The position numbers were made by a program, and so were the translations under genes. Positions 30,301 to 52,305 of a stretch of DNA of 56,353 nucleotides are shown piece after piece; position 1 is the first letter of the stretch; each line of letters starts with the position of its first letter. The notes beneath the pieces are model-generated. The model was not told the DNA's origin. It was given only the letters and a program-made list of their open reading frames with translations, and ran no database searches. The stretch is from Gammaproteobacteria bacterium (GTDB taxonomy: Bacteria; Pseudomonadota; Gammaproteobacteria; GCA-001735895), in contig JBLIOG010000002.1 in the NCBI GenBank assembly GCA_047639625.1, positions 1-56,353 on the forward strand, written 5' to 3'.

Positions 30301-33300
30301 GAATCGAAGTTGAAGATTCGATAGAACTGGGGTCAGAAAGCCTTATGGACCTTGAGGCCTCTTTGATTATTCCGAGATCCGAACTTGGACCGATCGAACA
30401 GGATTATGATCTCGATGACGAGGCTGAAAATGAAGCAGCTAATTTTCCCGATGAACCGGGAATTGACTCTTTCGACGTCGATGATAGCTTGGCCTTTGAA
30501 GAAGCCGAAGCAATCGCTATTTCGAATCCTGACCACGAAGAAATATTGATTTCTGTCGATGAGGCACTCAGGCCCGAAAAAATAGATGTGGGTTTTGATG
30601 GAGACCCCCCGACAGCCCCTTTAGCCGATCTGACAGGGACAGTCAAGGGCGGCGAAAAAATCGAAGCAGTGCCACGTTTAAATCAAGGACTGACAGAACC
30701 AACAGACCTGTCATTCGATCCGGAACTTCTAACGATTTACCAGCAAGAGGTCGAACAGCACCTAAGCATCGTAAATTCCGTCCTTAAAAATGCAGAGCAG
30801 TCGGGAGAGCTGGTACCCGGGGAGGATATTTATCGCGCTCTCCATACCATTCATGGGGCTTCCCGAACCGCTGATATTGGTAGCATAGGTGAACTTTCCG
30901 GTCTGATGGAAAAACCACTTAAATCGGCCATCGCTCAGAGGATGGCTCTTGATCTGGAAATCGTGGCGCTTTATCAGCAAGGGCATGATGCTTTAAAGAA
31001 AATGACCGCCGAACTGGTTGAAACACGACGTTTACCCAGTATTGATAATGATTTAAAAATCAGTTTTTGGGCTCTGGCGGAAGATTTTGAGGAACACACT
31101 GTAGAAATACCTGGTGATAGTGAGCTACCGACGGGTGAATTCATTGATACTTTGACGATGATGAATGAAATGGCCGGTCTTCCCAAAGAACAGGATGACG
31201 AACTGCTCACCATCTTTATCGATGAAGCGAACGAATTGCTCGAAATGAGCGACCATACTTTGGATAGCTGGTCAAAACTAGAAGCGGATGAAAGTGGTAA
31301 TTACGATTTCTCAGCGGTGATGGAATTACAGCGCTATTTGCATACCCTGAAGGGTGGTGCACGTATGGCTGAATTAAATGAAATTAGTGATTTAAGCCAT
31401 GAAATGGAATCCCTGTTTATTGCGGTTATCGATGGACGGGTCGATAAAAGTGAAGATCTGGTTGACGTAATTCGAGGCAGTTTTGATCTCTTGCAACAGC
31501 AGGTAGTTGAAGCCGAGAAAAGTGAACCGCTTAGCTCACCGGAAAGTCAGTTAAAACTGATTCATCAGATGCGATTCGGTGAGGATGACGATCATTCAAC
31601 CGGCGATGGTATGCCGAATGATCAACTTGATAGCGAAGATATAGATATAGTCGCGGAGAATTTTACGGGTGAAGTGCGTTCACAAACAGACAGACCGGGA
31701 GCTGATGTCATCAAAGTCCGTTCTGATTTGCTCGACAACCTGGTTAATTCGGCAGGTGAGGTCAGTATTTATCGAGCACGCATGGAACAGCAGATTACAG
31801 GCCTGGGCTCCTATCTGGGCGAACTCGGGCAAACCATCAATCGTCTCAAGAATCAACTACGAAATCTAGAGGCAGAAACTGACACGCAAATACATTTCAG
31901 CCACAAAACTCAGGATAAAAACCACGAAGAATTCGATCCACTTGAGCTTGATCGATATACCGTGATTCAGGAGTTATCAAGATCTCTTAGTGAAAGTGTT
32001 AACGATCTGTCGAGTTTACAAAATATGCTGGGTGATCAGGTAAAAGACTCTGAGACGTTACTATTGCAGCAATCGCGCGTTAATACTGACCTTCAAGATG
32101 GTTTAATTAAAAGTCGAATGGTTCGATTTTCGGGATTATTATCGCGTTTACGCCGTCTGGTTCGTCAAAGTAGTCAGGAAGTAGGACGCAAAGCCGAGTT
32201 AATTGTTTCCGGTGAAAACAACGAGGTCGATAACAAGGTTCTGGATAGAATGATTGCACCGCTTGAGCATATCATTCGTAATGCTATTTCTCATGGTATT
32301 GAAACGCCCGTTGAAAGAGTAAAAAAAGGTAAACCTGAAACTGGAATTATCTCAATAGAGATTCAACGTGAAGGTTCCGACATCGTAATTAAAGTCAGTG
32401 ATGATGGATCTGGAATTAATACTGATAAGATCAGAAGTCGAGCACTACAACTGGGTTTAATTAATGAAAATCAGGCGGTTACAGATGCCGAGCTGGTTCA
32501 GTATATTCTCGAGCCTGGTTTCAGCACTGCTGAACATGTAACTCAGTTGTCGGGCCGCGGTGTTGGCATGGATGTTGTCTCTATTGAGATCAAGCAACTG
32601 GGTGGTACTTTGCAAATTGACACCAATCCACAGGGCACCGCTTTTATAGCCCGGCTACCGTTCACTTTGTCGATTAATCAGGCGATTATGGTACGAACGG
32701 GTGAAGAATTATATGCAATACCGCTTATCAATATCGAGGGAATTACCCGGCTAGACACCTCGCAGCTGTTAGATTATTACAGCCAGGACAGCCCGAAGAT
32801 TGAATATACAGGTCAAAGCTATGCCTTACATCATCTAGGTAAACTAGTGGAAGCGAGCGAAATTTCCAAACCTGACGAAGCTACTAAACAGTCCGTCATT
32901 CTGGGACGGGCCGGCGATACGCGGGTTGCCTTGCATGTTGATGAGATTTTGGGCAACAGGGAAATTGTTGTGAAACCCCTGGGTAAGCAGTTAAGTCAGG
33001 TAAAGAGCCTGGCGGGTGCGAGTATTTTAGCCGATGGTAGTGTTGTATTGATTCTCGATATCGGAGGCATAATCCGTCACAGCGTGAGTAACCCTGTAAA
33101 AATAGTTTATAGCAGCGAAGTTCCAAAGGTTGCTGAAACCCAGCGCAGTAAAGTTATGGTGGTTGACGATTCAATAACCATGCGCAGGGTAGCCAGTAAA
33201 CTACTGGAGAGGCACGATTATGACGTAGTTACAGCAAAAGACGGTGTCGATGCTTTGGCGCAGCTCGAAGATACTCGACCTGATGTGATGCTGCTAGATG

Positions 33301-33515
33301 TAGAAATGCCGCGTATGGATGGTTTTGAACTGGCAACCTATATGCGAAATGAGGCTTCCTACTCGAATATTCCTATTATTATGATTACCTCCAGAACCGG
33401 TGAAAAACATCGAGATCGAGCTTTTGAAATCGGTGTCACTAACTATATGGGGAAACCCTATCAGGAAGACGAGCTGATCAGTAACATTCAGTCTGCTTTA
33501 AGCAATCGAAAATAA
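27366..33515 (+). CDS. chpA: ChpA, multi-Hpt CheA-type hybrid histidine kinase with C-terminal receiver
   Basis: The protein is 2049 aa. It has three canonical Hpt motifs: FHTIKGSGR (His codon 29709), LHTIHGASR (30843) and LHTLKGGAR (31341). It has a CheA dimerisation/HATPase core (HIIRNAISHGIE, GRGVGMDVV), a CheW-like domain and a receiver domain (VMVVDDS ... LLDVEMPRMDG ... YMGKP). Confidence 0.95.
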   Translation: MNLQESSIKQSALGWVKKSIDDYLSEIKTNLKLYIEEGDENLLENVNDRLSLIQGVLMMIEQYGAAMLTEEMLSLGQYILDKQNDNSNQALEVLLRAVLQLPDYLEHIQSGHKDIPIAILPLLNDIRTVKNQDLFSEKLLFLPDLSMHKQAADLETIDDRKNHASKLLAKKLRPVYQISLLNVIKDQKIEESLRKLEKVCDVLEERSASEQIARIWWIIGALIESLKRQQLELGVSIKSLLGKVDALFRVLLIIGEKGLLQRQPVDLIKNFLYYLAQPECDGPKTKAIKTAYRLEQFLPSEAARSKVLSNIAGPNQALLKTVAEAVKADIETVKSTLEVYVNGDPANISLIKDLPHELHIISDTLAMIGFGQQRQLIEGQIGVVKKIISSEISADEEQLLLMAEELIQVEQSLDLMQFRIPVVAEESRDESTMSRDFEFGNVISAVVSAALDNIQKTKSAILEFVKDTSRYDNIELCNVMLNEARGALILMNHDRAVSVIDGLMLYLKDYDPDTFIEAASLDSLSQVVVSLEYYLEAVGEHRGDVDDILGFANIQLQGLLSGVKIEEFTPLEPEEELVISGEDQSKVDVESELDISIDLPSIKTVDESIDLDLIDRGVNVLSDPSDELSDDEVGVSSQQVGTGSEIEEEPDHAKVLIDVPGFALPETDQEIVHELSGELEDLHAVLEIDESGQVPSLSEIEQTDSQYEDRQWIAEAKDTGARHVVPVVEELEILKEGSDPEILEIYLEEAEEESINIARMQQDWLMHPEDENALRNIRRAFHTIKGSGRLVGASKIGEFAWDYEQLLNRVIDKTVITDSELIGAVGLASGAMFELVEELKSRKPPGCDIAWLRGLARSLSEFRADKVLSEHTMTLQRTETDDDRITDEPLDPARLVDIDDDDFATPIDSSDRVNPNTQGISEHDPESAVAAVQEEAFQSVTDDPVEEIELTGLPGMEQVSDSPMDAIAQLAHNLRDPERIEVEDSIELGSESLMDLEASLIIPRSELGPIEQDYDLDDEAENEAANFPDEPGIDSFDVDDSLAFEEAEAIAISNPDHEEILISVDEALRPEKIDVGFDGDPPTAPLADLTGTVKGGEKIEAVPRLNQGLTEPTDLSFDPELLTIYQQEVEQHLSIVNSVLKNAEQSGELVPGEDIYRALHTIHGASRTADIGSIGELSGLMEKPLKSAIAQRMALDLEIVALYQQGHDALKKMTAELVETRRLPSIDNDLKISFWALAEDFEEHTVEIPGDSELPTGEFIDTLTMMNEMAGLPKEQDDELLTIFIDEANELLEMSDHTLDSWSKLEADESGNYDFSAVMELQRYLHTLKGGARMAELNEISDLSHEMESLFIAVIDGRVDKSEDLVDVIRGSFDLLQQQVVEAEKSEPLSSPESQLKLIHQMRFGEDDDHSTGDGMPNDQLDSEDIDIVAENFTGEVRSQTDRPGADVIKVRSDLLDNLVNSAGEVSIYRARMEQQITGLGSYLGELGQTINRLKNQLRNLEAETDTQIHFSHKTQDKNHEEFDPLELDRYTVIQELSRSLSESVNDLSSLQNMLGDQVKDSETLLLQQSRVNTDLQDGLIKSRMVRFSGLLSRLRRLVRQSSQEVGRKAELIVSGENNEVDNKVLDRMIAPLEHIIRNAISHGIETPVERVKKGKPETGIISIEIQREGSDIVIKVSDDGSGINTDKIRSRALQLGLINENQAVTDAELVQYILEPGFSTAEHVTQLSGRGVGMDVVSIEIKQLGGTLQIDTNPQGTAFIARLPFTLSINQAIMVRTGEELYAIPLINIEGITRLDTSQLLDYYSQDSPKIEYTGQSYALHHLGKLVEASEISKPDEATKQSVILGRAGDTRVALHVDEILGNREIVVKPLGKQLSQVKSLAGASILADGSVVLILDIGGIIRHSVSNPVKIVYSSEVPKVAETQRSKVMVVDDSITMRRVASKLLERHDYDVVTAKDGVDALAQLEDTRPDVMLLDVEMPRMDGFELATYMRNEASYSNIPIIMITSRTGEKHRDRAFEIGVTNYMGKPYQEDELISNIQSALSNRK

Positions 33516-34799: not shown

Positions 34800-36218
34800 C
34801 TAGTAACGATAATGCTCTGGCTTATAAGGTCCTTTAACATCAACGCTAATGTAATCAGCCTGCTCTGGCGTCAATTCAGTTAGCTCCGCCCCTATTTTTT
34901 CCAAATGTAGTCGAGCAACTTCTTCATCGAGATGTTTAGGCAGCGTGTAAACTTCATTTTTATATTTACCAGGATTGGCGAAAATCTCAATCTGAGCCAG
35001 AGTTTGATTGGTAAAAGAATTAGACATAACGAAACTTGGATGACCTGTGCCGCAACCGAGATTAACCAGACGACCTTCAGCTAACAGAATGATACGTTTT
35101 CCATCAGGAAAAATAACATGATCAACTTGTGGCTTGATATTTTCCCATTCGTATTGCTTTAATTCAGCGACTTCAATTTCATTATCAAAATGTCCGATGT
35201 TACAAACGATAGCCTGATTTTTCATCTTGATCATGTGCTCGTGGCGAATAACATTAAAATTGCCCGTGGTCGTAACAAAGATATCAACATCAGCACAAAC
35301 TTTATCCATTTGTACGACCCTGAATCCTTCCATCGCTGCCTGCAAAGCACAGATTGGGTCAATTTCACTGATCATAACGCTCGCACCAAGGCCTTTTAGT
35401 GATTGCGCGCTGCCTTTACCAACATCGCCATATCCCAGAACAAGCGCCACCTTACCGGCAATCATAACGTCGGTTGCACGTTTGATCGAATCTACCAGGG
35501 ATTCGCGGCAGCCATATAGATTGTCAAATTTTGATTTAGTGACAGAGTCATTGACGTTAAATGCAGGAAACGGTAACTCGCCACTAGCCTGCAATTTGTA
35601 GAGTCGAAGAACACCCGTTGTGGTTTCTTCGGTGACACCTTTGATATTCTTCTGAATATTTGAATACCAGTTCGGAGACGTTTTAAGTTTCTCTTTAATA
35701 GAAGCGTACATGATGATTTCTTCTTCACTACCGGGGTGATCAAGTACAGAAATATCGGATTCAGCTTTAGTGCCAAGATTAACCAGCATAGTGGCATCAC
35801 CACCGTCATCGAGAATCATATTCGGTGTACCACCATCATGCCATTCCATGATTTTGTGAGAGTACTGCCAATAATCTTCAAGAGATTCACCTTTGAACGC
35901 AAAAACTGGAACACCTGAAGTTGCAATCGCTGCGGCTGCGTGATCTTGCGTAGAGAAAATATTACAGGATGCCCAGCGTACCTCTGCGCCTAAAGAAACT
36001 AGCGTTTCAATAAGAACGGCAGTCTGAATTGTCATGTGCAGAGAGCCTGCTATTCGGGCGCCTTTGAGGGGCTTTTCATCGCCGTATTTGGTTCGTAAAA
36101 AAACCAGTCCGGGCATTTCTGTTTCGGCAATTGCTATTTCCTTTCTACCCCAGGCAGAAAGAGCAATATCCGCTATGATATAGTCGTTGTTTAGTGAGTC
36201 TTGAACTTTCGCGTTCAT
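34800..36218 (-). CDS. ahcY: Adenosylhomocysteinase
   Basis: It has the NAD-binding motif [12 protein letters not shown], plus IGHFDNEI and a C-terminal KPEHYRY. Confidence 0.95.
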
Positions 36219-36244
36219 AAATAAACCTCTTTTTCTTGCATTTA

Positions 36245-36316
36245 TTTATGAGCGCCGTTAAAAATTACTGTCTATCAAGCCTGGCAGAAAATCTGTCGCA
36301 GCGCCCCTCAATAGCC
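36245..36316 (-). promoter_or_regulatory. SAH (S-adenosylhomocysteine) riboswitch in the ahcY leader
   Basis: The minus-strand read is UUGAGGGGCGCUGCGACAGAUUUUCUGCCAGGCUUGAUAGACAGUAAUUUUUAACGGCGCUCAUAA. It contains the three conserved SAH-element blocks (GAGG(A/G)GCGCUGCGAC, CAGGCU, AACGGCGCUCA). The 5' GGGCGC can pair with the 3' GCGCUC. It lies about 30 nt upstream of the ahcY SD/ATG. Confidence 0.75.
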
Positions 36317-36395: not shown

Positions 36396-37562
36396 TTACA
36401 AGCCTGCATCAGATTTCAGTTGTTCAGCTCTATCTGTACGTTCCCAACTGACATTTAGATCTTCCCGACCAAAATGACCGTAGGCTGCAGTCGGTTCGTA
36501 AATTGGTTTTAACAAGTCCAACATCGCAATTAAGCCTTTAGGACGGAGATCAAAATGTTGACGTACCAGAGTAGCAATACGATCATCATCTATCTTGCCA
36601 GTACCAAAAGTCTCAATACTAATAGAGGTCGGTTCGGCGACGCCAATCGCATATGACACCTGAATTTCACATCTATCCGCTATGCCAGCAGCGACTATAT
36701 TTTTAGCAACATACCGAGCTGCGTAAGCGGCAGAACGATCAACCTTCGATGGATCTTTTCCTGAAAATGCACCACCACCGTGCCTTGCCATTCCACCATA
36801 GGTATCGACAATAATTTTACGACCGGTAAGGCCAGCATCACCGACAGGTCCGCCAATGACAAAACGACCAGTTGGATTAATATGGATGTTCTCGCTTTTA
36901 CATTGCGATAACCATTCGGCTGGGAGAACCGGCTTTAATATTGATTCCATAACACCTTCACGCAGTGTCTTGAGATCCACGGACTCTTTATGCTGCGTTG
37001 AAAGCACCACGGCCTCAATGCCTACGGGTTGATGGTTTTCATATCGAAGGGTGATCTGGCTCTTGGCATCGGGTTGTAGCCACTCGAGTTCACCTGAGCG
37101 TCGAACTTCTGCCTGACGTTGGACAAGCCTGTGGGCGTAGGTGATGGGTGCGGGCATCAAAACATCTGTTTCATTACAGGCATATCCGAACATCAGGCCC
37201 TGGTCTCCAGCGCCTTGTTCATGGTCACTCGATTCGTCGACTCCCATGGCGATATCGTCTGACTGTTTACCCAGCCCAACGATTACGGCGCAGGTATTAC
37301 CATCGAATCCGCATTCAGCGTTGTCATATCCAATGCGGTTGACGGTATCCCGAACCAGTTTCTCCATATCAACCCAGGCATGCGTGGTTATTTCACCCGC
37401 TAGCATGACCATGCCGGTTTTTACCAAAGTTTCACAGGCAACTCTCGAGCGGTGATCTTGCTCCAGTAAAGCATCAAGAACTGCATCCGAAATTTGATCA
37501 GAAACCTTATCCGGATGTCCTTCCGAAACCGACTCGGATGTGAAAATAAAAGAACTGGCCAT
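36396..37562 (-). CDS. metK: S-adenosylmethionine synthase
   Basis: Motifs [24 protein letters not shown] and [19 protein letters not shown] are present. Confidence 0.95.
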
Positions 37563-44247: not shown

Positions 44248-45801
44248 CTATCGAGTGTATCGCGCTGTTTTCTTCTTGTAGTGGCCTTGAATAATACGAT
44301 CAATGACCATTGCACAAAATAGGATTGCAAGACCCGCTAGCATGCCCTGACCTTTGGCTGCATACTGTAATGCGATCAGCACGTCTTGTCCGAGGCCTTT
44401 GGCACCGATCAAAGATGCGATAACCACCATCGACAGGCACATCAGAATGGTTTGGTTAATGCCGGTCATTATAGAAGGCATGGCCAAAGGTAGTTCGACG
44501 TCTTTCAGCAAAGTCCATTTGGTCGCACCAAATGCTATTGCTGCCTCTTTGGTGGTTTCGGGTACGCCACGCATTCCGAGTGCGGTTAGACGGATTACCG
44601 GAGGCATACCGAAGATGATGGTCGCTAGAACACCAGGCGGTTTGCCCGTTCCAAAAAAAGCAATGATTGGAATTAGGTAAACAAAGGCAGGCATGGTTTG
44701 CATGAAGTCGAGTATAGGCAGCGCTGAATTATAAGCGCGTTTACTCTTGCCAAACCAGATGCCGAGGGGTATTCCCATGAGCAGGCATAGAAACGCCGCT
44801 GCTCCGAGCAGTGCGACAGTAATCATGCTGGTTTCCCACATACCCAGGAAGCCAAGGTAAGCCAGTGATGCAGCGGTAAATATAGCAACTCTCGGGCCGG
44901 CTAATCGAAAGGCAGTGACTATAATAACCGTCATAACAACCGGCCATGGAGTTCCGACGAAGACCGTTTCCAGCCCATCAAGTACGGTGCGAATCGTGAT
45001 CACTACTCCATCGAACACGCCTGCACCACTGATTGATAACTGATCAAAACCATCTTCCATCCAGTTGGCAACCGGTGAAAAGTAGGCTTTTTTCTCAACC
45101 GGAAACCCAAGGGTATAGGCTTCAAGTTCAGGTGCAATCTTACCCACAGTGAACCGGTAAAGCGTTAACGGAACGATTGCGAGCCAGAGTATTGCGCCTA
45201 TCACAACTCGCATCCAGCTCAGTCCAATTATTGACTTGTCATGTTCGGCGCGCCATGTCAGGTACTGATTTTCATATCGGATATTGGCGGAGAAGCCCTG
45301 GAATAGCCGGAGTGCTACAAAAAACAGCAACCCAACGATGAGATAGGTAGTCGCACCTTCAGCTGCGGCGGTAGCTTCAACCATCAAACGATCGACTACT
45401 TTCTGTAGGTTTTCTGAACGCGCGAGGTAATTCGCCGCATCTTCGGGTTTAGCGGCTTCCAGCGCGACTTGATATTTTTCATAAAAAGACTGTATTTTGG
45501 GTTCCATCTTCTCGATTCGCGCCAGCTTGTCTGCTCCGAGTTCACCCCATAGTCCTTTACCTATCTGCACCAGTGCCAAAATCTCTAGTACCAGGAAAGT
45601 CCAGAACCCCCCCCATAATCCTCTGGCTGCCCCCCAAAAGGGACCACCAATTGCAGCCCAGATATTCCACGATCGAGGAATTTTGGTAGCAGACTGAATT
45701 TTTTCAAATTCACGGCGGTAGTATTCGGTGTTTTCGACAACAAAGTCGTCTATTGAGCTGCCCAGTTTAGCGGGTTCAGCAGAAAATCCTGATTCCTGCA
45801 T
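44248..45801 (-). CDS. Glycine-betaine/proline-type ABC transporter permease with about 230-aa N-terminal extension
   Basis: The C-terminal roughly 290 aa is ProW/OpuAB-like, with the permease loop EAAIAFGATKWTLLKDVELPLAMPSI. The N-terminal part has extra TM helices and a segment (YYRREFEKIQ...SWNIWAAIGGPFWGAARGLWGGFW) resembling DUF2628-type domains. It has a 1-nt overlap with the ATPase gene stop. Confidence 0.85.
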   Translation of the reverse strand: MQESGFSAEPAKLGSSIDDFVVENTEYYRREFEKIQSATKIPRSWNIWAAIGGPFWGAARGLWGGFWTFLVLEILALVQIGKGLWGELGADKLARIEKMEPKIQSFYEKYQVALEAAKPEDAANYLARSENLQKVVDRLMVEATAAAEGATTYLIVGLLFFVALRLFQGFSANIRYENQYLTWRAEHDKSIIGLSWMRVVIGAILWLAIVPLTLYRFTVGKIAPELEAYTLGFPVEKKAYFSPVANWMEDGFDQLSISGAGVFDGVVITIRTVLDGLETVFVGTPWPVVMTVIIVTAFRLAGPRVAIFTAASLAYLGFLGMWETSMITVALLGAAAFLCLLMGIPLGIWFGKSKRAYNSALPILDFMQTMPAFVYLIPIIAFFGTGKPPGVLATIIFGMPPVIRLTALGMRGVPETTKEAAIAFGATKWTLLKDVELPLAMPSIMTGINQTILMCLSMVVIASLIGAKGLGQDVLIALQYAAKGQGMLAGLAILFCAMVIDRIIQGHYKKKTARYTR

Positions 45802-46847
45802 TATTCTTTCCCCCCTTTAATACCCTTTAACAAGGTTGATTTACTGACCACCCCAATGTCTTTACCATCGTCTGTTATTACGATGGGCTGATTGGTTGTG
45901 GTAGAGATATCAATCAGGCCGCTTAGATCGGTATCATGTGGTGCACGTAAGGCTTCCGACAAATCCTCGTGCGGTTGAACCTGGTACTCGTCATACTTTT
46001 CCATGATTGAATGAGCAAAAATAAGTTTTAGTGTTGAAATACCTTCGACAAAATCGGTGACATACTCGTCGATCGGGTTAGTCACAATCTCTTCCGGTGT
46101 ACCGATTTGAACGATGACGCCGTCTTTCATGATCGCTATACGATTACCAATTCGTATGGCTTCGTCAAGATCGTGGGTGATAAAAACGGTGGTTTTGTTT
46201 AGATCCGCCGACAGGGCCATGAATTGCTCCTGCAATTGACGTCGGATTAAGGGATCCAGGGCCGAAAATGGTTCATCCATTAGCAGAATTTCGGGGTCAG
46301 AGGCTAGCGCTCGCGCAAGTCCGACACGTTGCTGCATACCACCCGATAACTCGCTTGGGAAACGATCTTCGTATCCGTCGAGATTGACCAGATTGAGGCA
46401 GCGCTGTGATTCTTCCCAGCGTCTTGATTTCGATTCACCCTGAACCTGTAACGGGAATGCCACATTGTCGCGAACCGTCCTGTGGGGGAACAACGCCATA
46501 TGCTGAAAAACCATACCGATGTGAGCGGCGCGCAGTTTTCGCAATTCTTCTGGGGGCAATTTGAGGACGTCTCGGCCCAATACTTCTATCGATCCGCTGG
46601 TAGGTTCGATTAGTCGATTTAAATGACGCACCATGGTGGATTTTCCGGAGCCGGAGAGGCCCATGACACAAAATATTTCACCTCTTGGAACCTCAAAAGA
46701 GCATTCAGCAATACCAACCACACAGCCAAATTTTTCGAGTACTTGCGGCTTGGTCAGACCTTCAGTCTTGATCGCCGCCATAGCTTCTTCGGCACGAGAG
46801 CCAAAAATCTTCCAGACATCGTCAAGTTTAATAACCGCTTCGCTCAA
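45801..46847 (-). CDS. Glycine-betaine/proline-type ABC transporter ATP-binding protein
   Basis: It has Walker A GLSGSGKST, the signature LSGGMQQRV and Walker B ILLMDEPFSALD. The N-terminus is ProV/OpuAA-like and the C-terminal regulatory domain is short. Confidence 0.9.
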   Translation of the reverse strand: MSEAVIKLDDVWKIFGSRAEEAMAAIKTEGLTKPQVLEKFGCVVGIAECSFEVPRGEIFCVMGLSGSGKSTMVRHLNRLIEPTSGSIEVLGRDVLKLPPEELRKLRAAHIGMVFQHMALFPHRTVRDNVAFPLQVQGESKSRRWEESQRCLNLVNLDGYEDRFPSELSGGMQQRVGLARALASDPEILLMDEPFSALDPLIRRQLQEQFMALSADLNKTTVFITHDLDEAIRIGNRIAIMKDGVIVQIGTPEEIVTNPIDEYVTDFVEGISTLKLIFAHSIMEKYDEYQVQPHEDLSEALRAPHDTDLSGLIDISTTTNQPIVITDDGKDIGVVSKSTLLKGIKGGKE

Positions 46848-46868
46848 CTGACTACCCTCATTGCTTAC

Positions 46869-46905
46869 AAAAAAAAACGGGCGAATTCTTAAGATTTCAC
46901 CCGTT
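46869..46905 (-). terminator. Intra-operon hairpin plus U-run between the binding-protein and ATPase genes
   Basis: The minus-strand read is AACGGGTGAAatcttaagaaTTCGCCCGTTTTTTTTTT. It forms a 10-bp stem with one G.U pair, followed by a T-run. Confidence 0.65.
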
Positions 46906-46945
46906 CCTTAGTTTTAGTCGATTCGCATAATGCGATCCGGTGAAA

Positions 46946-47902
46946 TTATTTCAACCAGGAATCAACTGTTTTCTCGTTAGCCATAACCCATTCCTTGGCA
47001 TAGTCATTTGGATCCTTTTGGTCGACTACCAGCGCATAGGTCATTGCAGATACCTGATCAGTAGTCAGACTTATGCTATTCAGCATATCAGCAACTCCAG
47101 GGTGAGCTTTCTTCAGGGATACCGCGTAGTGAACATGAAGATAAGCTTTATCCCAGGCAACAGGCGCGTTTGAAACTTCAAGCCAGTTGGGGTCGTCAGT
47201 GGGCTGAACTACGTTCCACTTGGACTCGTCGTAGGCTGGTTCATCGAGAATAACCAGTTCGTGCAATGCAAACAGATGGTGCGGGGTGTAGCAGAAGAAC
47301 ACAGAATCTTCTTTTTTGGCGACGGCATTATCAACACCCGCCAAAGCGACAGACTCGTCCATTTCCATCAGGTTCATGGTCTCGTCATAGCCATAGCTCT
47401 TGGCACGGATTTTTTCTACACTGGTTGATGCCCAGCCTGAAGCACCGATCCATACTTCACCTTTACCATCGCCGTCGGTATCGAAGTTTTGCGCCATGTC
47501 CGGATCTGACAGGTCGGATAATTTCTTGATGCCGGTACGCTCGGCGGTGCCTTTGGTTACACACATGCCCTGGAACGCCGGCACACCCTTAGGTGCTTGT
47601 AGAACAGTTTTCTTTTGATTGACAAAGGTGTTGTTGAGGTTTGCCTGGTTTGGTAGCCATACTTCAGGATGGATATGCATGCTGCCGGAGTCCATGGCTT
47701 CAAATACAACTGGGTTGGATGCATTTTGAAGTTCAACTTCGAGACCAAAATTATCTTCTATGACGGCTTTAAGGATGCTGGCAGTTGCCGCAACTGATGG
47801 CCAGTTTGGAACACCAATAACCACATCGGCAGCACTTGCATAGCTGGAAACACCCAGGCTGGCCGCAACTAATACACCCATTAGGGACTTTTTTAATTTC
47901 AT
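46946..47902 (-). CDS. Periplasmic substrate-binding protein, glycine-betaine (ProX/OpuAC)-type
   Basis: It has a signal peptide (MKLKKSLMGVLVAASLGVSSYASA). It has an OpuAC-like pattern (VVIGVPNWPSVAATASILKAVIE, HPEVWLP) with Trp/Tyr residues compatible with an aromatic ligand box. Confidence 0.85.
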   Translation of the reverse strand: MKLKKSLMGVLVAASLGVSSYASAADVVIGVPNWPSVAATASILKAVIEDNFGLEVELQNASNPVVFEAMDSGSMHIHPEVWLPNQANLNNTFVNQKKTVLQAPKGVPAFQGMCVTKGTAERTGIKKLSDLSDPDMAQNFDTDGDGKGEVWIGASGWASTSVEKIRAKSYGYDETMNLMEMDESVALAGVDNAVAKKEDSVFFCYTPHHLFALHELVILDEPAYDESKWNVVQPTDDPNWLEVSNAPVAWDKAYLHVHYAVSLKKAHPGVADMLNSISLTTDQVSAMTYALVVDQKDPNDYAKEWVMANEKTVDSWLK

Positions 47903-48154
47903 ACTAACCTCCTCAGGTTTTTATAATGTATAGAAAGTAGATCCACCTTTATGAATGGCGGCTTAATTCACTAGTATTTGATGTCAATCGATAGTCATTG
48001 AGTATGACTCGATAAACAATGAACGATATTAACCCAATTTTCGGGTCGATGACAATTGCCTTATCTTAATTTTTTTAGAATGGGAGCTTTTTATTCGATA
48101 TCACCTTTTTCAATCTCTAAGACCCACTTAAACGAGGTTTCGAGGTAGGAATAA

Positions 48155-49071
48155 TCAGTGCTTTGCCAATATATTGAGCAATTGATTGCTAAAGGCTTCG
48201 GTCATTGTGATGTTTCGTGGCGTTCGGTGTTTGACGTGGGATAGTTCAGTTTCGATAGTGATTTGATCCGCTATCAGTGGTTTGAACTCGTTTCGAACGC
48301 ACCAGTTATGTGCGTAATAAGGCGGTAAAAATCCAATATATTTGCCGGTTTGAATCAATATGGCGGTTACTTCGAGGCTTGAAGCAAATGCTTTCGAATT
48401 CATTGAAATGGGTGGATCAGTACGACTGCTTGTTTCCCCGTAAGTGCGTTCGATAAATGCCGCCGTTTGAATGTCTTCAAGTTTAAGACCGGGTTCTTTC
48501 TTGTTAAAAAGCGGGTGGCCTTCACCACCATAGAGCAATAATTGCTCCGTGCATAAAGTCTGATAAATCAACCCAGCTGACCGGTGATAAAAGACGCCGA
48601 TCGCAGAATGTAATTTATGATCGAGAACCGCGCGCTCCAGTTCCGAAGGTGGCATGGTATAGAGTGAAATTTCGAGATCGACGGCTGCCTCTTAAACTCG
48701 CGCAATAGCGGTTGAGGTCGGGAGATTAGGGTCAAAAATCATATTATCGATCAAGCCAAGACGCAGTTCTCCGTGGATAGCGCCTTTTGCTGCACCTATT
48801 TCTGTAATGAAGTTTTCATGAGCCAGTAGCAAGGCCTGACAGGCCTGATAAACAGCTTCGCCTTCAGGCATTAATGAAAAGCCACTCCTGCCTCTTAGGC
48901 AAAGCTGCAGTCCGAGACGTTCTTCAAGCTCGGTCATTCTTAGGCTAATGGTCGATGCACTTAGATTTAACTCGTGTTGAGCCAGGGTAAACCCCCGCAT
49001 TCGACGATTGTCATGTAGATTCGGAGACACTTGATGTCAATATCGTGAAGATTTCCAATCATCGTATCCAT
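48155..49071 (-). pseudogene. LysR-family transcriptional regulator, disrupted (1-nt frameshift plus in-frame TAA)
   Basis: Frame A from the ATG at 49071 gives MDTMIGNLHDIDIKCLRIYMTIVECGG, then runs out of frame at the G5T3 run (48989-48996). Frame B continues the HTH with FTLAQHELNLSASTISLRMTELEERLGLQL and reaches an in-frame TAA at 48692-48694. The same frame continues directly after it as EAAVDLEISLYTMPPSELERAVLDHKLHSAIGVF, the LysR effector domain, to 48155. Confidence 0.8.
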
Positions 49072-49099
49072 GTGTTTGACCTTCAATTAGTTAATAAAA

Positions 49100-49118
49100 A
49101 TCGAAAGTGTACTTCGAT
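49100..49118. promoter_or_regulatory. Interrupted dyad, candidate LysR-type operator
   Basis: The sequence is ATCGAA-N7-TTCGAT, a perfect 6+6 dyad. It lies in the 119-bp divergent region between the LysR pseudogene (ATG 49071) and the enzyme operon (ATG 49191). Confidence 0.4.
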
Positions 49119-49190
49119 TAATTAATATTTTTTCAAATTAAAGTGTGTGCGACAGTGATTGCTGTTACTGAAAACGACCGGGAGAAACTA

Positions 49191-50069
49191 ATGACTAATC
49201 CAACTCGATCACCCGATTACTGGGGTATAGATAATGATTATGGTGTCTTACGCGATGTGCTGCTGGGTAAACGTGAGTGTTTTCGTTGGGTAGAAGAAGG
49301 TCCTTTAATCGGACACACCCTGAAAAATATGCATAAGACCGGCCATGCATTCGATTTTGATCTTTCGCAACGGCAGTTTTGGGAGATGGTTAAAGTGTAT
49401 GAAGATGCCGGTGTGACCTGTCATTACCTCGACTCAGATCCGGTGTTGCACCGAAATTTCTTTGCGCGAGATTCTAGCGCTATTACTCCCTGGGGCGCAT
49501 TGATTTGCCACATGCAGTTAAAATGTCGGCGGGCAGATTATGTAACGACAATCAAATTTTATCAGGACAACAATATTCCAATCTGGAATTACGCAACGGC
49601 CGGTCATTTCGAAGGCGGAGATTTTGTCATCCTCGAGCCGGGAACCGTATTAATCGGATACTGTGGTGAACGCTCTGAACAGGTCGCTGAATTTGTGCGT
49701 AAAGAAGGTTGGGATGTGGAAGTGGCGCCTATTCCCGCTTTGTTTGTACATATGGATGGTTTGGTGGTTCCGCTCGATGAGAAGTTGGTGGTAACCTGTC
49801 TGGATGCGCTCGAAGGTTGGGTCATAGATTGGCTGAAGAAAAACGGCTTCGATTTTGTCGATGTTGACTTTGGCGAAGCGAAAGATTTGGGTGTTAATCT
49901 GGTCTCGCTGGGGAACAAAAAAGTTTTGTCGACGGTGGGCAGTGTTAATTTGAATGAAAATTTACGCAAACGTGGCTATAAGGTCTTTGCACCTGATATG
50001 TCGATGTTTACACTGGGTGGCGGAGGCGTGCATTGTATGTGTCAGGCCTTAAAACGCGATCTTGTTTAG
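49191..50069 (+). CDS. Guanidino-group-modifying enzyme superfamily protein (arginine deiminase / amidinotransferase / DDAH-like)
   Basis: The C-terminal catalytic motif GGGGVHCMCQAL has the Cys nucleophile preceded by His. The size is about 292 aa. The SD GGAGAA sits 5 nt upstream of the ATG at 49191. The ORF-track start at 49143 is less likely. Confidence 0.75.
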   Translation: MTNPTRSPDYWGIDNDYGVLRDVLLGKRECFRWVEEGPLIGHTLKNMHKTGHAFDFDLSQRQFWEMVKVYEDAGVTCHYLDSDPVLHRNFFARDSSAITPWGALICHMQLKCRRADYVTTIKFYQDNNIPIWNYATAGHFEGGDFVILEPGTVLIGYCGERSEQVAEFVRKEGWDVEVAPIPALFVHMDGLVVPLDEKLVVTCLDALEGWVIDWLKKNGFDFVDVDFGEAKDLGVNLVSLGNKKVLSTVGSVNLNENLRKRGYKVFAPDMSMFTLGGGGVHCMCQALKRDLV

Positions 50070-50099
50070 AAACTAACTTTTAGAATTGGTGAGAAATCC

Positions 50100-51338
50100 A
50101 TGACGGAATTAAAAGATCTTCGGGTAGATGGAAATCGTCTATGGCAAAGTATTATGGCAATGGCGGAAATTGGGCCCGGCCAGCATGGTGGGTCCTGTCG
50201 GCTGGCGCTTACCGATGCCGACCGCGATGGCAGAGAGTTGTTCCTCGGCTGGTGTCGTGAGATTGGATGTTCGTTGAAAGTTGATGATATGGGGAATTTG
50301 TTTGTTCGGCGTGACGGCGGTAATCCAAACCGTGACCCAATAGCGTCAGGTAGTCATCTTGATACGCAGCCGCACGGTGGAAAGTTTGATGGCATTTATG
50401 GCGTATTGGCAACCCTGGAAGTTTTTCGTGCCTTGCACGATGCCGATGTTGTAACGGATGCTCCGCTTGAAATTATCGTCTGGACCAATGAAGAAGGTTC
50501 GCGCTTTGCACCTGCAATGATCGCTTCGGGGGTTTATGCCGGATTGTTTGAAAAAGAATTTGCCTGGTCTCAAACCGATACCGATGGAATCACTCTGAAG
50601 TCAGAACTCGAGCGAACCGGTTATATGGGTGACGAAATTTGTGGTGACCATAAAATTGCTGCATTACTGGAAGCTCATATTGAACAGGGTCCGATTCTTG
50701 AACGGTTTAGTGATCAAATTGGTGTGGTCCAGGGAGCCCAGGGTCAGCGCTGGTTTGATGTAGTCATTAGAGGCCAGGATTCGCACGCGGGTTCAACACC
50801 GATGGAAGGTCGCAAAGATGCGTTGGTAGCGTCGTCAGAAATCATAGGAAAACTTCAAACGCTCGCACTCGACAACGCGCCTGACGCGGTCGCGACTGTC
50901 GGCCAGTTGATTGTTAGTCCTAATTCGCGGAATACCATTCCGGGAGAGGTTTCCTTTTCGGTCGATATGCGAAATCCAGATGATCAGGTTTTGTCTTCAA
51001 TGAATGAGGCATTCCGGTCTTTTGCGAACGAAGCTGCTGCAAAGCAATCCGTAGAAATCGATATACAGCAGATCTGGCATATTCCACCGATCTTATTTGA
51101 TGAAGCGTGCGTTGCTGCTGTTGAAAGTTCAGCGGTTGAGTTGGGTTATGCCCATCGTTCAATAGTTTCAGGGGCCGGGCACGATGCCTGCCAGGTCTGC
51201 CAGAAAATTCCTACCGCAATGATCTTTGTGCCCTGTGCTGGAGGCCTCAGTCACAATGAAGCCGAAAGTGCCACATTGGAAGACCTTGAAGCGGGTTGTA
51301 ATGTGTTGCTGCAAAGTATTCTTAAATTAGCCAGTTAA
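50100..51338 (+). CDS. Peptidase M20-family Zn amidohydrolase (N-carbamoyl-amino-acid / allantoate amidohydrolase-like)
   Basis: Motifs GSHLDTQPHGGKFDG, WTNEEGSRF and GAGHDA are present. The length of 412 aa is typical of the AmaB/AllC subfamily. Confidence 0.85.
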   Translation: MTELKDLRVDGNRLWQSIMAMAEIGPGQHGGSCRLALTDADRDGRELFLGWCREIGCSLKVDDMGNLFVRRDGGNPNRDPIASGSHLDTQPHGGKFDGIYGVLATLEVFRALHDADVVTDAPLEIIVWTNEEGSRFAPAMIASGVYAGLFEKEFAWSQTDTDGITLKSELERTGYMGDEICGDHKIAALLEAHIEQGPILERFSDQIGVVQGAQGQRWFDVVIRGQDSHAGSTPMEGRKDALVASSEIIGKLQTLALDNAPDAVATVGQLIVSPNSRNTIPGEVSFSVDMRNPDDQVLSSMNEAFRSFANEAAAKQSVEIDIQQIWHIPPILFDEACVAAVESSAVELGYAHRSIVSGAGHDACQVCQKIPTAMIFVPCAGGLSHNEAESATLEDLEAGCNVLLQSILKLAS

Positions 51339-51351
51339 CGAGTATCAAAAA

Positions 51352-52305
51352 ATGTCTAATTCGAAAAATGATCAAGATCCTATTACTCGACCCCGTTTTA
51401 CCGGGTTACCTACCTTTATGCGGGCACCCTATCGAGAGAGTTTTGAAGATGTAGATATAGGTTTGATTGGTGTCCCTTTTGACGGCGGTGTGACCAATCG
51501 TCCGGGCGCCCGTCATGGACCAAGAGAAATTAGAAATCAATCGAGCTTAATTCGAAAAATGAATCAGGCGACTGGAATTTCTCCGCATGACATTTGCCGC
51601 GTGGCTGATATAGGTGATGCCTGGGTAGAAAAACCCTTCACTCTAGAAGGCAGTCATCAGGAAATAGAAGCCTATTATCGAGATGTAATCGCCGCAGGGA
51701 TTACGCCATTATCTGCAGGTGGCGACCATTCTATTACTTTACCGATATTTCGAGCACTGGCAAAAGACGGGCCGATTGGTATGGTTCATTTTGATGCGCA
51801 TTGTGATACTGGCGATGATTATCTGGGGTCAAAGTTTCACCATGGCGCTCCCTTCAGTCGCGCTGTTGAAGAAGGTTTGCTCGATCCAAAACGAACCATA
51901 CAAATTGGTATCAGAGGATCAGTGAATGACCCTGATATCTGGAAATTCAGCCACGATTCCGGCATGCGGGTCATCTATATCGAAGAGTATTTCGATATGG
52001 GCCATAAGGCGGTCATCGAAGAAGCGCGACGAGTAGTGGGTGACGGTAAGACCTATATCAGTTTTGATGTAGACGCACTCGATCCGGTTTATGCGCCTGG
52101 TACCGGAACACCCGAAGTCGGTGGATACAGCACGCTTGAAGCACAAATGATGATTCGCGGATTAAGTGGCCTCGATTTAATTGGTGGTGATGTGGTTGAG
52201 GTGTCGCCGCCTTTCGATCCAACGGGTAATACGGCACTGGTTGGAGCTACTATGATGTTTGAAATTCTTTGTGTACTTGCAGAATCTCGGGCTGTGAGAG
52301 GGTAG
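51352..52305 (+). CDS. Ureohydrolase of the agmatinase / guanidinobutyrase / guanidinopropionase family
   Basis: It has the arginase-fold Mn ligand motifs GGDHSIT, HFDAHCDT and SFDVDALDP. The N-terminus FMRAPY...DIGLIGVPFDGG is typical of the SpeB/Gbu family. Confidence 0.9.
   Translation: MSNSKNDQDPITRPRFTGLPTFMRAPYRESFEDVDIGLIGVPFDGGVTNRPGARHGPREIRNQSSLIRKMNQATGISPHDICRVADIGDAWVEKPFTLEGSHQEIEAYYRDVIAAGITPLSAGGDHSITLPIFRALAKDGPIGMVHFDAHCDTGDDYLGSKFHHGAPFSRAVEEGLLDPKRTIQIGIRGSVNDPDIWKFSHDSGMRVIYIEEYFDMGHKAVIEEARRVVGDGKTYISFDVDALDPVYAPGTGTPEVGGYSTLEAQMMIRGLSGLDLIGGDVVEVSPPFDPTGNTALVGATMMFEILCVLAESRAVRG

What the first reader, a model, noticed from the sequence alone, without database searches (positions are those of the whole stretch)
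44248..52305. Accessory island combining a betaine-type ABC importer, a broken LysR regulator and a guanidino-compound enzyme trio
On the minus strand lie the LysR pseudogene, a ProX-type binding protein, an ATPase and a permease. Divergent from the regulator, on the plus strand, lie a GME-superfamily enzyme, an M20 amidohydrolase and an agmatinase-family ureohydrolase. This is the classical layout of a substrate-specific uptake and catabolism module. ProX/OpuAC-type binding proteins recognise cationic quaternary-amine or similar head groups. All three enzymes act on guanidino or ureido groups. The likely substrate is a guanidino osmolyte or metabolite, for example guanidinoacetate, guanidinopropionate/butyrate, taurocyamine or a methylated arginine derivative. 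I do not know of a described system with this exact composition.
Basis: inference. Interest (0 to 1): 0.7.

Follow-up and report, generated by a model that had tools for sequence, protein, structure and literature searches.

The report
Guanidino-acid uptake and breakdown gene cluster
This is a real, widely conserved but uncharacterised gene cluster, common in sponge-associated marine bacteria. It most likely imports small guanidino acids and strips their nitrogen by two hydrolytic routes, and in this organism its own regulator gene is broken.

Summary
On the minus strand lie a ProW-like permease, a ProV-like ATPase, an OpuAC/ProX-type binding protein and a LysR gene with two lesions. Divergent on the plus strand lie a GME-superfamily hydrolase, an M20 carbamoylase-family amidase and an ureohydrolase 62% identical to P. 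aeruginosa 3-guanidinopropionase.

The transporter and the enzymes are linked in dozens of genomes, in several arrangements. These include single-strand operons and a complete LysR-controlled operon on plasmids of cultured Rhodobacterales. Most carriers are sponge-symbiont MAGs.

The GME protein belongs to a small clade with no characterised member. It has the arginine-deiminase-type catalytic set (FxRD, EGGD, HxD, HC) and both carboxylate-binding arginines.

Best reading: import of a zwitterionic guanidino acid, then two routes.
- Deimination followed by decarbamoylation, giving the amino acid, CO2 and 2 NH3.
- Direct ureohydrolysis, giving the amino acid and urea.

The exact substrate is not established. 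The binding-protein residues conserved in the enzyme-linked group are almost all shared with paralogues that sit next to betaine-type methyltransferases. No paper describing this module was found. It is a new variant of a known kind, of moderate interest.

The parts
44248..45801 (-). ABC importer permease, ProW/ChoW-like, 517 aa. It has a ~240-aa N-terminal extension before the BPD_transp_1 domain.
   Evidence: Pfam BPD_transp_1 2.1e-24. NCBIfam ChoW 260 bits and ProW 249 bits, both below the equivalog cut-offs. The N-terminal part gives only a weak DUF2628 hit. It is 70-75% identical over its full length in linked loci.
45801..46847 (-). ABC importer ATPase, ProV subfamily, 348 aa, without the tandem CBS module of ProV/OpuAA.
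   Evidence: TIGR01186 349.5 bits against 326.6. The only C-terminal signal is a sub-threshold half-CBS match, E = 0.013. It overlaps the permease start by 1 nt.
46946..47902 (-). Periplasmic substrate-binding protein, OpuAC/ProX type, 318 aa, with a signal peptide ending ASA|AD.
   Evidence: PF04069 1.6e-51. ProX equivalog 83.7 bits against 215 and ChoX 75.5 against 379, so neither is met. Best PDB match is E. coli ProX at only 4e-8. ProX cage residues W65 and W140 align with W82 and W157. N33, W34, E80, W82, N85, Q86, W157 and Y205 are invariant in 31 orthologues.
48155..49070 (-). LysR-family regulator pseudogene, divergent from the enzyme operon. It has a frame switch beside the G5 run at 48992-48996 and an in-frame TAA at 48692-48694.
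   Evidence: HTH_1 and LysR_substrate hits lie on two separate ORFs. Sequence reading. tblastn with intact orthologue L011 gives 56% identity over the full length in two frames, with one internal stop. The lesions are identical in independent contig L086.
49099..49119 (.). Perfect dyad AATCGAA-N7-TTCGATT in the lysR/GME intergenic region. It is a candidate LysR binding site, by inference only.
   Evidence: I5. It is unique in the window, but 42 of 100 shuffles give a match to the looser pattern. It lies 29 bp upstream of the lysR ATG. It is not conserved in sequence in other loci.
49191..50069 (+). GME-superfamily hydrolase of an uncharacterised clade. Proposed function: guanidino-acid deiminase.
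   Evidence: PF02274 and PF19420 are above gathering, but all NCBIfam DDAH, ADI and arginine-dihydrolase equivalogs are far below their cut-offs. Motifs FARD (D94), EGGD (E141, D144), HMD (H187, D189) and HC (C282) align with ADI D166, E224, H278, D280 and C406. R114 and R161 align with the carboxylate-binding Arg of ADI (R185, R243) and DDAH (R85, R132). DDAH has HLK where this clade has HMD. AF2 model pLDDT 76. Best folds are NnhA, AGAT, ADI and DDAH at 13-17% identity.
50100..51338 (+). M20 hydantoinase/carbamoylase-family amidase. Proposed function: ureido-acid amidohydrolase.
   Evidence: TIGR01879 415 bits against 204. NF006769 617 bits against 452. PDB matches: Burkholderia carbamoylase-family amidases at 1e-146, and N-carbamoyl-beta-alanine amidohydrolase 8c46 at 9e-128. 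The motifs GSHLDTQP..GGKFDG, NEEGSRF, HIEQGP and SGAGHDA are conserved. Its start lies 30 nt after the GME stop.
51352..52305 (+). Ureohydrolase of the guanidino-acid hydrolase type, GpuA-like.
   Evidence: PDB 3nip (P. aeruginosa 3-guanidinopropionase) 1e-124, 62% identity. 3nio (guanidinobutyrase) 5e-89, 49% identity. The Mn-site motifs GGDHS, DAHCDT and DVDALDP are conserved. Its start lies 13 nt after the M20 stop.

Best explanation
This is a nutrient-scavenging module for small zwitterionic guanidino acids. The best guesses for the substrate are 3-guanidinopropionate or taurocyamine-like compounds. Guanidinoacetate, 4-guanidinobutyrate and creatine are not excluded.

Proposed steps:
1. 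The ProX-type binding protein captures the compound in the periplasm, and the ProV/ProW-like ABC system imports it.
2. The ADI-like GME enzyme attacks the guanidino carbon through Cys282. It releases NH3 and leaves the ureido (N-carbamoyl) acid.
3. The M20 carbamoylase hydrolyses that product to the amino acid, CO2 and NH3.
4. The GpuA-like ureohydrolase provides a parallel one-step route to the amino acid plus urea, for the same substrate or a neighbouring chain length.
5. A divergent LysR protein normally activates the enzyme operon when the substrate is present. In this organism that regulator is dead, so the module is probably uninducible or runs only at basal level.

Shown: gene content, family membership, intact catalytic motifs, the broken regulator, and conserved linkage. 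Inferred: the substrate class, the order of the reactions, and the role of the regulator.
For: Linkage.
- Among 17 genome loci with a GME orthologue of at least 78% identity and at least 6 kb of flank on each side, 14 have the M20 gene, 12 the ABC genes and 10 the GpuA-like gene. M20 lies directly downstream in 19 of 49 loci overall.
- The arrangement varies: divergent; one strand in L016, L022 and L028; SBP downstream of M20 in Ruegeria and Amylibacter. This argues for selection on linkage rather than inherited synteny.
- Cultured Alisedimentitalea scapharcae and Rhodobacteraceae M382 carry the arrangement LysR <-> GME-M20-SBP-ATPase-permease-arginase family-GpuA-like on plasmids. Every component is 51-74% identical to the window's.
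- Searching from the binding protein gives the reciprocal result. All 5 loci with an SBP of at least 59% identity and enough flank carry M20, and 3 carry GME. None of those at 58% or below does.

Enzymes.
- The ureohydrolase is 62% identical to GpuA.
- Enzymes of this clade need an acidic group on the substrate (PMC9772407).
- The GME has the ADI-type catalytic residues plus both carboxylate-binding arginines.
- The M20 falls in the carbamoylase family, next to N-carbamoyl-beta-alanine amidohydrolase.

Transporter.
- The ATPase lacks the osmosensing tandem CBS module. This fits nutrient uptake better than osmoprotection.

Ecology.
- Carriers are mostly sponge-symbiont MAGs and bacteria isolated from invertebrates.
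- Sponges make creatine and creatinine, and host-derived guanidino compounds are already proposed as nitrogen sources for symbionts (PMC6742649).
Against: - No enzyme or binding assay exists for any member.
- Of the 107 binding-protein columns conserved in the enzyme-linked group, all but three are also conserved in the closest paralogue group (55-58% identical; L100-L103). One member of that group (L101) lies next to an MttB-family methyltransferase. More distant paralogues (L106, L108) lie next to MttB-family and/or dimethylglycine-dehydrogenase-like genes. The ligand head group could therefore be betaine-like.
- Two fragmentary metagenome contigs (L091, L093) have SBP and M20 with no GME between them.
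- Some loci replace M20 with FrhB-like and polysaccharide-deacetylase-like genes, or replace the OpuAC transporter with an SBP_bac_5 or MFS system.
- Two routes to the same product in one operon look redundant.
- The GME model is only moderately confident, and the conserved segment 89-115 is poorly modelled.
Confidence: 0.55

Rival explanations
1. The module handles arginine derivatives. The GME enzyme acts as an arginine or methylarginine deiminase (ADI/DDAH-like) and gives citrulline. The M20 enzyme hydrolyses the ureido group to give ornithine. The ureohydrolase handles arginine-derived 4-guanidinobutyrate or a similar compound.
For: The only named relatives of the GME protein are ADI and DDAH. 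Both arginines that bind the alpha-carboxylate of L-arginine in ADI and DDAH are conserved. The A. scapharcae plasmid carries a 5-guanidino-2-oxopentanoate decarboxylase gene about 12 kb away.
Against: All ADI, DDAH and arginine-dihydrolase equivalog scores are far below their cut-offs: 57 against 300, 38 against 489, and 24 against 450. Identity to any solved GME enzyme is 13-17%. The HxD motif argues against a dimethylated leaving group, since DDAH has HLK. No OTC or carbamate kinase gene and no amino-acid-type (PAAT) transporter is linked; the linked importer is of the betaine type. The ureohydrolase is closest to a C3 guanidino-acid enzyme.
Confidence: 0.15
2. The ABC system is an ordinary quaternary-amine (betaine-type) importer. 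Either it merely sits beside an unrelated guanidino/ureido enzyme operon, or the true common substrate carries a methylated ammonium head group.
For: The binding protein keeps the aromatic cage positions of ProX. Nearly all residues conserved in the enzyme-linked group are shared with paralogues linked to MttB-family methyltransferases and DMGDH-like enzymes. Some GME homologues at 67-69% identity sit beside FMO-type and Rieske oxygenases typical of methylamine metabolism.
Against: Transporter and enzyme genes are fused into single-strand operons, with the transporter genes placed between enzyme genes, in several lineages. The ProX and ChoX equivalog scores are far below their cut-offs. The ATPase lacks the tandem CBS module.
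Confidence: 0.12
3. The imported compounds are ureido acids, for example N-carbamoyl-beta-alanine or other carbamoyl amino acids. The M20 enzyme is the core catabolic step, and GME and the ureohydrolase are optional feeders.
For: M20 is the most constant partner of the binding protein in the reciprocal search, at 5 of 5 loci, two of them without GME. The M20 protein is about 50% identical to N-carbamoyl-beta-alanine amidohydrolase.
Against: The two contigs without GME are fragmentary, with frameshifted neighbouring genes. Several GME and ureohydrolase loci lack M20 altogether. A neutral ureido head group is an unlikely ligand for an aromatic-cage ProX-type protein (established knowledge of the family).
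Confidence: 0.08
4. The GME protein is an amidinotransferase. It moves the amidino group of an imported compound onto an acceptor such as beta-alanine, and the GpuA-like enzyme then hydrolyses the product, regenerating the acceptor.
For: Amidinotransferases (AGAT, SxtG, StrB1, HsvA) are among the best structural matches. One plasmid annotation calls the orthologue 'amidinotransferase'.
Against: The profile search gives AGAT only E = 0.5 and StrB1 E = 0.019, against 6e-8 for ADI and 7e-8 for DDAH. The clade has the EGGD motif shared with the hydrolases ADI and DDAH. The tightest partner is a carbamoylase, which has no role in a transfer cycle.
Confidence: 0.05

Closest known systems
P. aeruginosa gpuPAR / gbuA-gbuR guanidino-acid utilisation loci (from my own knowledge: Nakada and Itoh; structures 3nip and 3nio)
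   Same: A LysR regulator is transcribed divergently from a guanidino-acid ureohydrolase. The window's ureohydrolase is 62% identical to GpuA and 49% to GbuA. The loci serve to use guanidino acids as a nitrogen source.
   Different: The Pseudomonas loci have no GME deiminase, no M20 carbamoylase and no ProU-type ABC importer. Here the ureohydrolase is the least constant member of the cluster. Similarity of the regulator to GpuR or GbuR was not tested.
Agmatine deiminase pathway (AguA plus AguB)
   Same: The proposed logic is the same. A GME-superfamily deiminase turns a guanidino group into a ureido group plus NH3. A second hydrolase then removes the carbamoyl group. A one-step ureohydrolase (SpeB) exists as an alternative route.
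   Different: The substrate there is an amine, not an acid. AguB belongs to the nitrilase superfamily, not M20. The window's GME protein scores only against the ADI and DDAH family models, and far below their equivalog cut-offs.
ProU / OpuA / ChoXWV betaine-type ABC importers
   Same: The three-component architecture is the same, with an OpuAC-fold binding protein, a ProV-subfamily ATPase and a ProW-like permease with an N-terminal extension.
   Different: The ProX, ChoX, ProW and ChoW equivalog cut-offs are not met. The ATPase has no tandem CBS domains. The system is embedded in a catabolic operon rather than an osmostress regulon.
M20 N-carbamoyl-amino-acid / beta-ureidopropionase amidohydrolases (hydantoinase/carbamoylase family; PDB 8c46, 8apz, 5thw)
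   Same: About 50-57% identity, full-length alignment and conserved metal and catalytic motifs. Family cut-offs are met.
   Different: The genomic partner here is a GME hydrolase, not a hydantoinase or dihydropyrimidinase. The substrate is unknown.
Arginine deiminase and DDAH (GME-superfamily hydrolases)
   Same: The fold and the catalytic Cys, His and acidic residues are the same, as are the two substrate-carboxylate arginines.
   Different: Identity is 13-17%. The protein is about 295 aa and lacks ADI's helical insertion. It has HxD like ADI rather than the HLK of DDAH. The clade is small: 55 cluster representatives at E <= 1e-30 among 1.84 billion.

Membership tests
GME superfamily hydrolases (ADI/DDAH type) | Pfam family match above the gathering score | tested here: met
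   PF02274 60.2 bits against 22.8. PF19420 45 bits against 23.
GME superfamily hydrolases (ADI/DDAH type) | Catalytic Cys and His plus acidic guanidinium-binding residues | tested here: met
   C282, H187, D189, E141 and D94 align with ADI C406, H278, D280, E224 and D166, and are invariant in 52 homologues.
Dimethylargininase (DDAH) | NCBIfam equivalog score, and the HLK motif after the catalytic His | tested here: not met
   NF045659 56.9 bits against 300. NF045660 40.2 bits against 340. The motif is HMD, not HLK.
Arginine deiminase (ArcA) | NCBIfam equivalog score and the ~410-aa architecture with a helical insertion | tested here: not met
   TIGR01078 38.5 bits against 489. The protein is 292 aa.
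Guanidino-acid ureohydrolases (GpuA/GbuA clade) | Arginase fold with the binuclear Mn-site motifs | tested here: met
   PF00491 5.6e-87. GGDHS, DAHCDT and DVDALDP are conserved against 3nip.
Guanidino-acid ureohydrolases (GpuA/GbuA clade) | Closest characterised relative is GpuA rather than agmatinase or arginase | tested here: met
   3nip 1e-124 (62% identity). 3nio 5e-89. Agmatinases 1e-60 or weaker.
Guanidino-acid ureohydrolases (GpuA/GbuA clade) | Hydrolysis of 3-guanidinopropionate to beta-alanine and urea | not testable with these tools
   Needs an enzyme assay.
M20 hydantoinase/carbamoylase-family amidases | Family model cut-off and the metal-binding motifs | tested here: met
   TIGR01879 415.4 bits against 204. 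NF006769 617 bits against 452. Motifs are conserved against 8c46 and 5thw.
ProU/OpuA/ChoXWV betaine importers | OpuAC-fold binding protein and ProV-subfamily ATPase | tested here: met
   PF04069 1.6e-51. TIGR01186 349.5 bits against 326.6.
ProU/OpuA/ChoXWV betaine importers | Equivalog-level match of the binding protein and permease to ProX/ChoX and ProW/ChoW | tested here: not met
   ProX 83.7 against 215. ChoX 75.5 against 379. ChoW 260 against 363. ProW 249 against 439.
ProU/OpuA/ChoXWV betaine importers | Tandem CBS domains at the C terminus of the ATPase (osmosensing) | tested here: not met
   No CBS hit at E <= 0.001. The only signal is a 26-residue sub-threshold match, E = 0.013.
ProU/OpuA/ChoXWV betaine importers | Binding of glycine betaine, choline or proline betaine | not testable with these tools
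   Needs DSF or ITC. Residue comparison with MttB-linked paralogues was inconclusive.
LysR-activated guanidino-acid operons (GpuR/GbuR type) | LysR gene divergent from the catabolic operon | tested here: met
   The layout is present in the window, as a pseudogene. It is present with an intact gene in L011, L014, L024, L043-L046, L053, L057, L084, L085 and L087.
LysR-activated guanidino-acid operons (GpuR/GbuR type) | Orthology of the regulator to GpuR or GbuR | not tested
NCBIfam gives only generic LysR hits.

The most novel reading that the evidence does not exclude
The GME protein founds a new functional clade of the guanidino-group-modifying superfamily: a guanidino-acid deiminase, possibly acting on creatine or taurocyamine. 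Together with the M20 carbamoylase it forms a urease-independent route, the acid counterpart of the agmatine deiminase pathway. It is fed by a ProX-type transporter re-tuned from betaines to guanidinium head groups. Sponge symbionts and other invertebrate-associated bacteria would use this route to harvest host phosphagen-derived nitrogen.
Probability: 0.35. Interest if true: 0.65.

Novelty: new variant of a known kind. Interest (0 to 1): 0.5.

Why it matters
If confirmed, this would add three things.
- A new enzyme activity, guanidino-acid deimination, in a well-studied superfamily.
- A new ligand class for OpuAC/ProX-type binding proteins, which annotation pipelines uniformly call glycine-betaine transporters.
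- A concrete, testable route by which sponge symbionts take nitrogen from host guanidino compounds.

Cultured carriers make it directly testable: Alisedimentitalea scapharcae KCTC 42119 and Ruegeria atlantica.

The broken regulator in two independent assemblies of this population also gives a small natural case of a catabolic module losing its control gene while its structural genes stay intact.

Tried and rejected
- **Specificity-determining residues in the binding protein.** I compared 34 enzyme-linked orthologues with 7 paralogues. Only three hydrophobic positions (140, 185, 255) differ consistently, so no call on guanidinium versus trimethylammonium was possible.
- **Structure route for the GME protein.** The AF2 model is only moderate (pLDDT 76). 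Foldseek places it among all GME branches at 13-17% identity and cannot assign a sub-family.
- **Literature.** Seven of the eight full-text searches, on guanidino-acid deiminases, taurocyamine or guanidinopropionate catabolism, guanidino-binding SBPs and sponge-symbiont guanidino metabolism, found no description of this module. The eighth, a search on the MAG family names, found no functional information on it. The SAR11 SBP screen and the Ianthella taurine paper do not mention guanidino compounds.
- **Promoter and terminator scans.** Counts were at chance level.
- **LysR box.** The dyad at 49099-49119 is unique in the window, but it is not statistically compelling and is not conserved in sequence elsewhere.
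- **Island hallmarks.** Composition, tRNA genes and flanking repeats show nothing.
- **DDAH reading.** Rejected as the primary reading because of the HxD motif and the equivalog scores.
- **Extra neighbours seen in other loci.** APS kinase, FrhB-like, polysaccharide-deacetylase-like, RidA-like and SBP_bac_5 genes are absent from the window.

Full report
**Observation**

ORF listing and profile searches confirm the described content at the stated coordinates.

On the minus strand:
- a 517-aa ProW/ChoW-like permease (44248-45801);
- a ProV-subfamily ATPase (45801-46847; TIGR01186 349.5 bits against a cut-off of 326.6);
- an OpuAC-fold binding protein with a signal peptide (46946-47902; PF04069 1.6e-51);
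- two LysR fragments (48155-48655 and 48692-49030).

On the plus strand, with 30-nt and 13-nt gaps between genes:
- a GME-superfamily protein, whose likely start is the ATG at 49191 behind a GGGAGA ribosome-binding site;
- an M20 hydantoinase/carbamoylase-family amidase (50100-51338);
- an arginase-family ureohydrolase (51352-52305).

**The regulator is a real pseudogene**

Reading the minus strand shows a start at 49070 and a frame switch beside the G5 run at 48992-48996. It also shows an in-frame TAA at 48692-48694. An intact orthologue from locus L011 aligns over all 303 residues at 56% identity, in two frames and across the stop.

An independent JGI metagenome contig (L086) is 99.93% identical over 13.6 kb without gaps. 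Its gene calls show the same split. The six structural genes are full length with intact motifs.

**What the enzymes are**

*Ureohydrolase.* It matches P. aeruginosa 3-guanidinopropionase (3nip) at 1e-124 and 62% identity. It matches guanidinobutyrase (3nio) at 49%, and true agmatinases much less well. Work on the human member of this clade showed that these enzymes need an acidic group at the far end of the substrate, and that they take taurocyamine, guanidinobutyrate and guanidinopropionate (PMC9772407).

*M20 protein.* It meets the carbamoylase-family cut-offs. It is about 50-57% identical to solved carbamoylase-family amidases, including N-carbamoyl-beta-alanine amidohydrolase.

*GME protein.* This is the unusual one.
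- Pfam places it in the ADI/DDAH families, but every NCBIfam equivalog is far below its cut-off.
- No solved structure is closer than 13-17% identity. The best folds are 2-nitroimidazole nitrohydrolase NnhA, AGAT, ADI and DDAH.
- Only 55 cluster representatives out of 1.84 billion reach E <= 1e-30.
- Profile alignments show the ADI-type catalytic set: FARD, EGGD, HMD and HC. DDAH has HLK where this clade has HMD.
- Both arginines that hold the substrate carboxylate in ADI (R185, R243) and DDAH (R85, R132) are conserved.

By inference, it is a hydrolase acting on an unsubstituted guanidino group attached to an acid.

A scan of one genome per species found 80 loci with a GME homologue of 50-87% identity. 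Most are sponge-symbiont MAGs (Poriferihabitaceae, Arenicellales, Spongiihabitans, Granulosicoccaceae), with some Rhodobacterales including cultured Ruegeria.

All-against-all clustering of the neighbouring ORFs shows that the most recurrent neighbour families are exactly the window's set. These are ATPase, permease, M20, binding protein, ureohydrolase and LysR. Among the 17 loci with at least 78% identity and at least 6 kb of flank, 14 carry M20, 12 the ABC genes and 10 the GpuA-like gene.

The arrangement varies. It is divergent in some loci, and all on one strand in L016, L022 and L028. In Ruegeria and Amylibacter the binding protein lies downstream of M20.

Plasmids of cultured Alisedimentitalea scapharcae (from an ark shell) and Rhodobacteraceae M382 carry the arrangement LysR <-> GME-M20-SBP-ATPase-permease-arginase family-GpuA-like. 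Every component is 51-74% identical to the window's.

A reciprocal metagenome scan starting from the binding protein agrees. All five loci with at least 59% identity and usable flanks carry M20, and three carry GME. Loci at 58% or below carry neither.

**Complications**

- The paralogous binding proteins at 47-58% identity sit next to MttB-family methyltransferases and dimethylglycine-dehydrogenase-like genes, which points to quaternary or methylated amines. They share nearly all 107 columns conserved in the enzyme-linked group. The sequence therefore cannot show that the pocket is tuned to guanidinium. The ProX cage positions W65 and W140 are retained as W82 and W157.
- Two fragmentary contigs have SBP and M20 without GME.
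- Some loci swap M20 for FrhB-like and deacetylase-like genes. Others swap the OpuAC system for an SBP_bac_5 or MFS transporter.
- The ATPase lacks the tandem CBS osmosensor. This favours nutrient uptake over osmoprotection.

**Mechanism proposed**

A zwitterionic guanidino acid is imported and then processed by two routes.
- Route A: deimination by the GME enzyme to the ureido acid plus NH3, then decarbamoylation by M20 to the amino acid, CO2 and NH3.
- Route B: direct hydrolysis by the GpuA-like enzyme to the amino acid and urea.

This is the acid counterpart of the agmatine deiminase (AguA/AguB) versus agmatinase (SpeB) dichotomy, which is established knowledge. The LysR protein would be the substrate-responsive activator, as in the Pseudomonas gpu and gbu loci (my own knowledge). 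Its loss here predicts a silent or basal operon.

Candidate substrates are 3-guanidinopropionate, taurocyamine, guanidinoacetate, 4-guanidinobutyrate and creatine. Sponges make creatine and creatinine, and host-derived guanidino compounds are already discussed as nitrogen sources for symbionts (PMC6742649).

**Novelty and verdict**

Seven of the eight full-text searches found no description of a guanidino-acid deiminase or of this module. The eighth, a search on the MAG family names, found no functional information on it. Public annotations call the genes 'arginine deiminase family protein', 'Zn-dependent hydrolase' and 'glycine betaine ABC transporter'.

The cluster is a new variant of a known kind: a substrate-specific uptake and catabolism operon built around an uncharacterised GME clade. 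The 'accessory island' label is not supported by the window itself. It is consistent with the plasmid location and the patchy, rearranged distribution elsewhere.

Interest is moderate at 0.5. The finding is not startling, but it is well supported, ecologically focused and directly testable in cultured carriers.

Noticed in passing
window 36243-36315 (-), with 34800-36218 (-) and 36396-37562 (-): An SAH riboswitch (RF01057, 48.7 bits against 37) sits directly upstream of S-adenosylhomocysteine hydrolase, with SAM synthetase just upstream of it. This is an ordinary methyl-cycle arrangement.
   Followed up: partly
window 27366-33515 (+): A 2049-aa hybrid CheA-like kinase with three Hpt stretches, an H-kinase dimerisation domain, HATPase_c, CheW and a receiver domain. 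It is ChpA-like and suggests a Chp/Pil-type chemosensory system.
   Followed up: no
L012, L013, L018, L020, L022, L025-L028, L031, L081-L083: An APS kinase (CysC) gene lies next to the cluster in 13 Arenicellales-type loci, in three different positions: after the permease, after the ureohydrolase, or divergent from GME. This is unexplained. It could hint at a sulfonated substrate such as taurocyamine, or be lineage synteny. No such gene is in the window.
   Followed up: partly
L001, L017, L018, L081-L083: In these loci the M20 gene is missing. A FrhB/FdhB-like protein lies between GME and the GpuA-like gene. In L001, L017 and L018 it is joined by a polysaccharide-deacetylase (PuuE-like) protein, and in L018 also by an MmgE/PrpD protein. 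This is an alternative, unexplained version of the enzyme set.
   Followed up: partly
L101 10001-15177; L106 10001-18874; L108: Paralogous ProX-type transporters (40-58% identical SBP) are linked to MttB-family methyltransferases and to DAO-GCV_T (dimethylglycine-dehydrogenase-like) enzymes. This is probably an uncharacterised quaternary-amine demethylation module in aerobic marine bacteria.
   Followed up: partly
L064, L066, L068, L069, L071, L072: These Arenicellales loci carry two tandem ~515-aa permease genes in the transporter operon, next to a GME homologue at 61-66% identity, with no M20 and no ureohydrolase.
   Followed up: no
L089 (A. scapharcae plasmid NZ_CP123586.1, 92253-97952): About 12 kb from the module, a second LysR-controlled cluster encodes a 5-guanidino-2-oxopentanoate decarboxylase, a CtBP-type dehydrogenase, a desaturase-like oxygenase with its ferredoxin, and an M24 Xaa-Pro peptidase/creatinase-family protein. 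The plasmid may collect several guanidino-compound pathways.
   Followed up: no
window 44248-45801 (-), N-terminal ~240 residues: The permease has a long N-terminal extension with only a weak DUF2628 match. It is conserved in length in orthologues (509-525 aa). Its function is unknown.
   Followed up: no
L040, L048, L052, L059: GME homologues at 67-69% identity have neither transporter nor M20. They sit beside an FMO-type monooxygenase, an FkbM methyltransferase, a carbonic anhydrase and a Rieske oxygenase. The clade may therefore have a second, methylamine-related context.
   Followed up: partly
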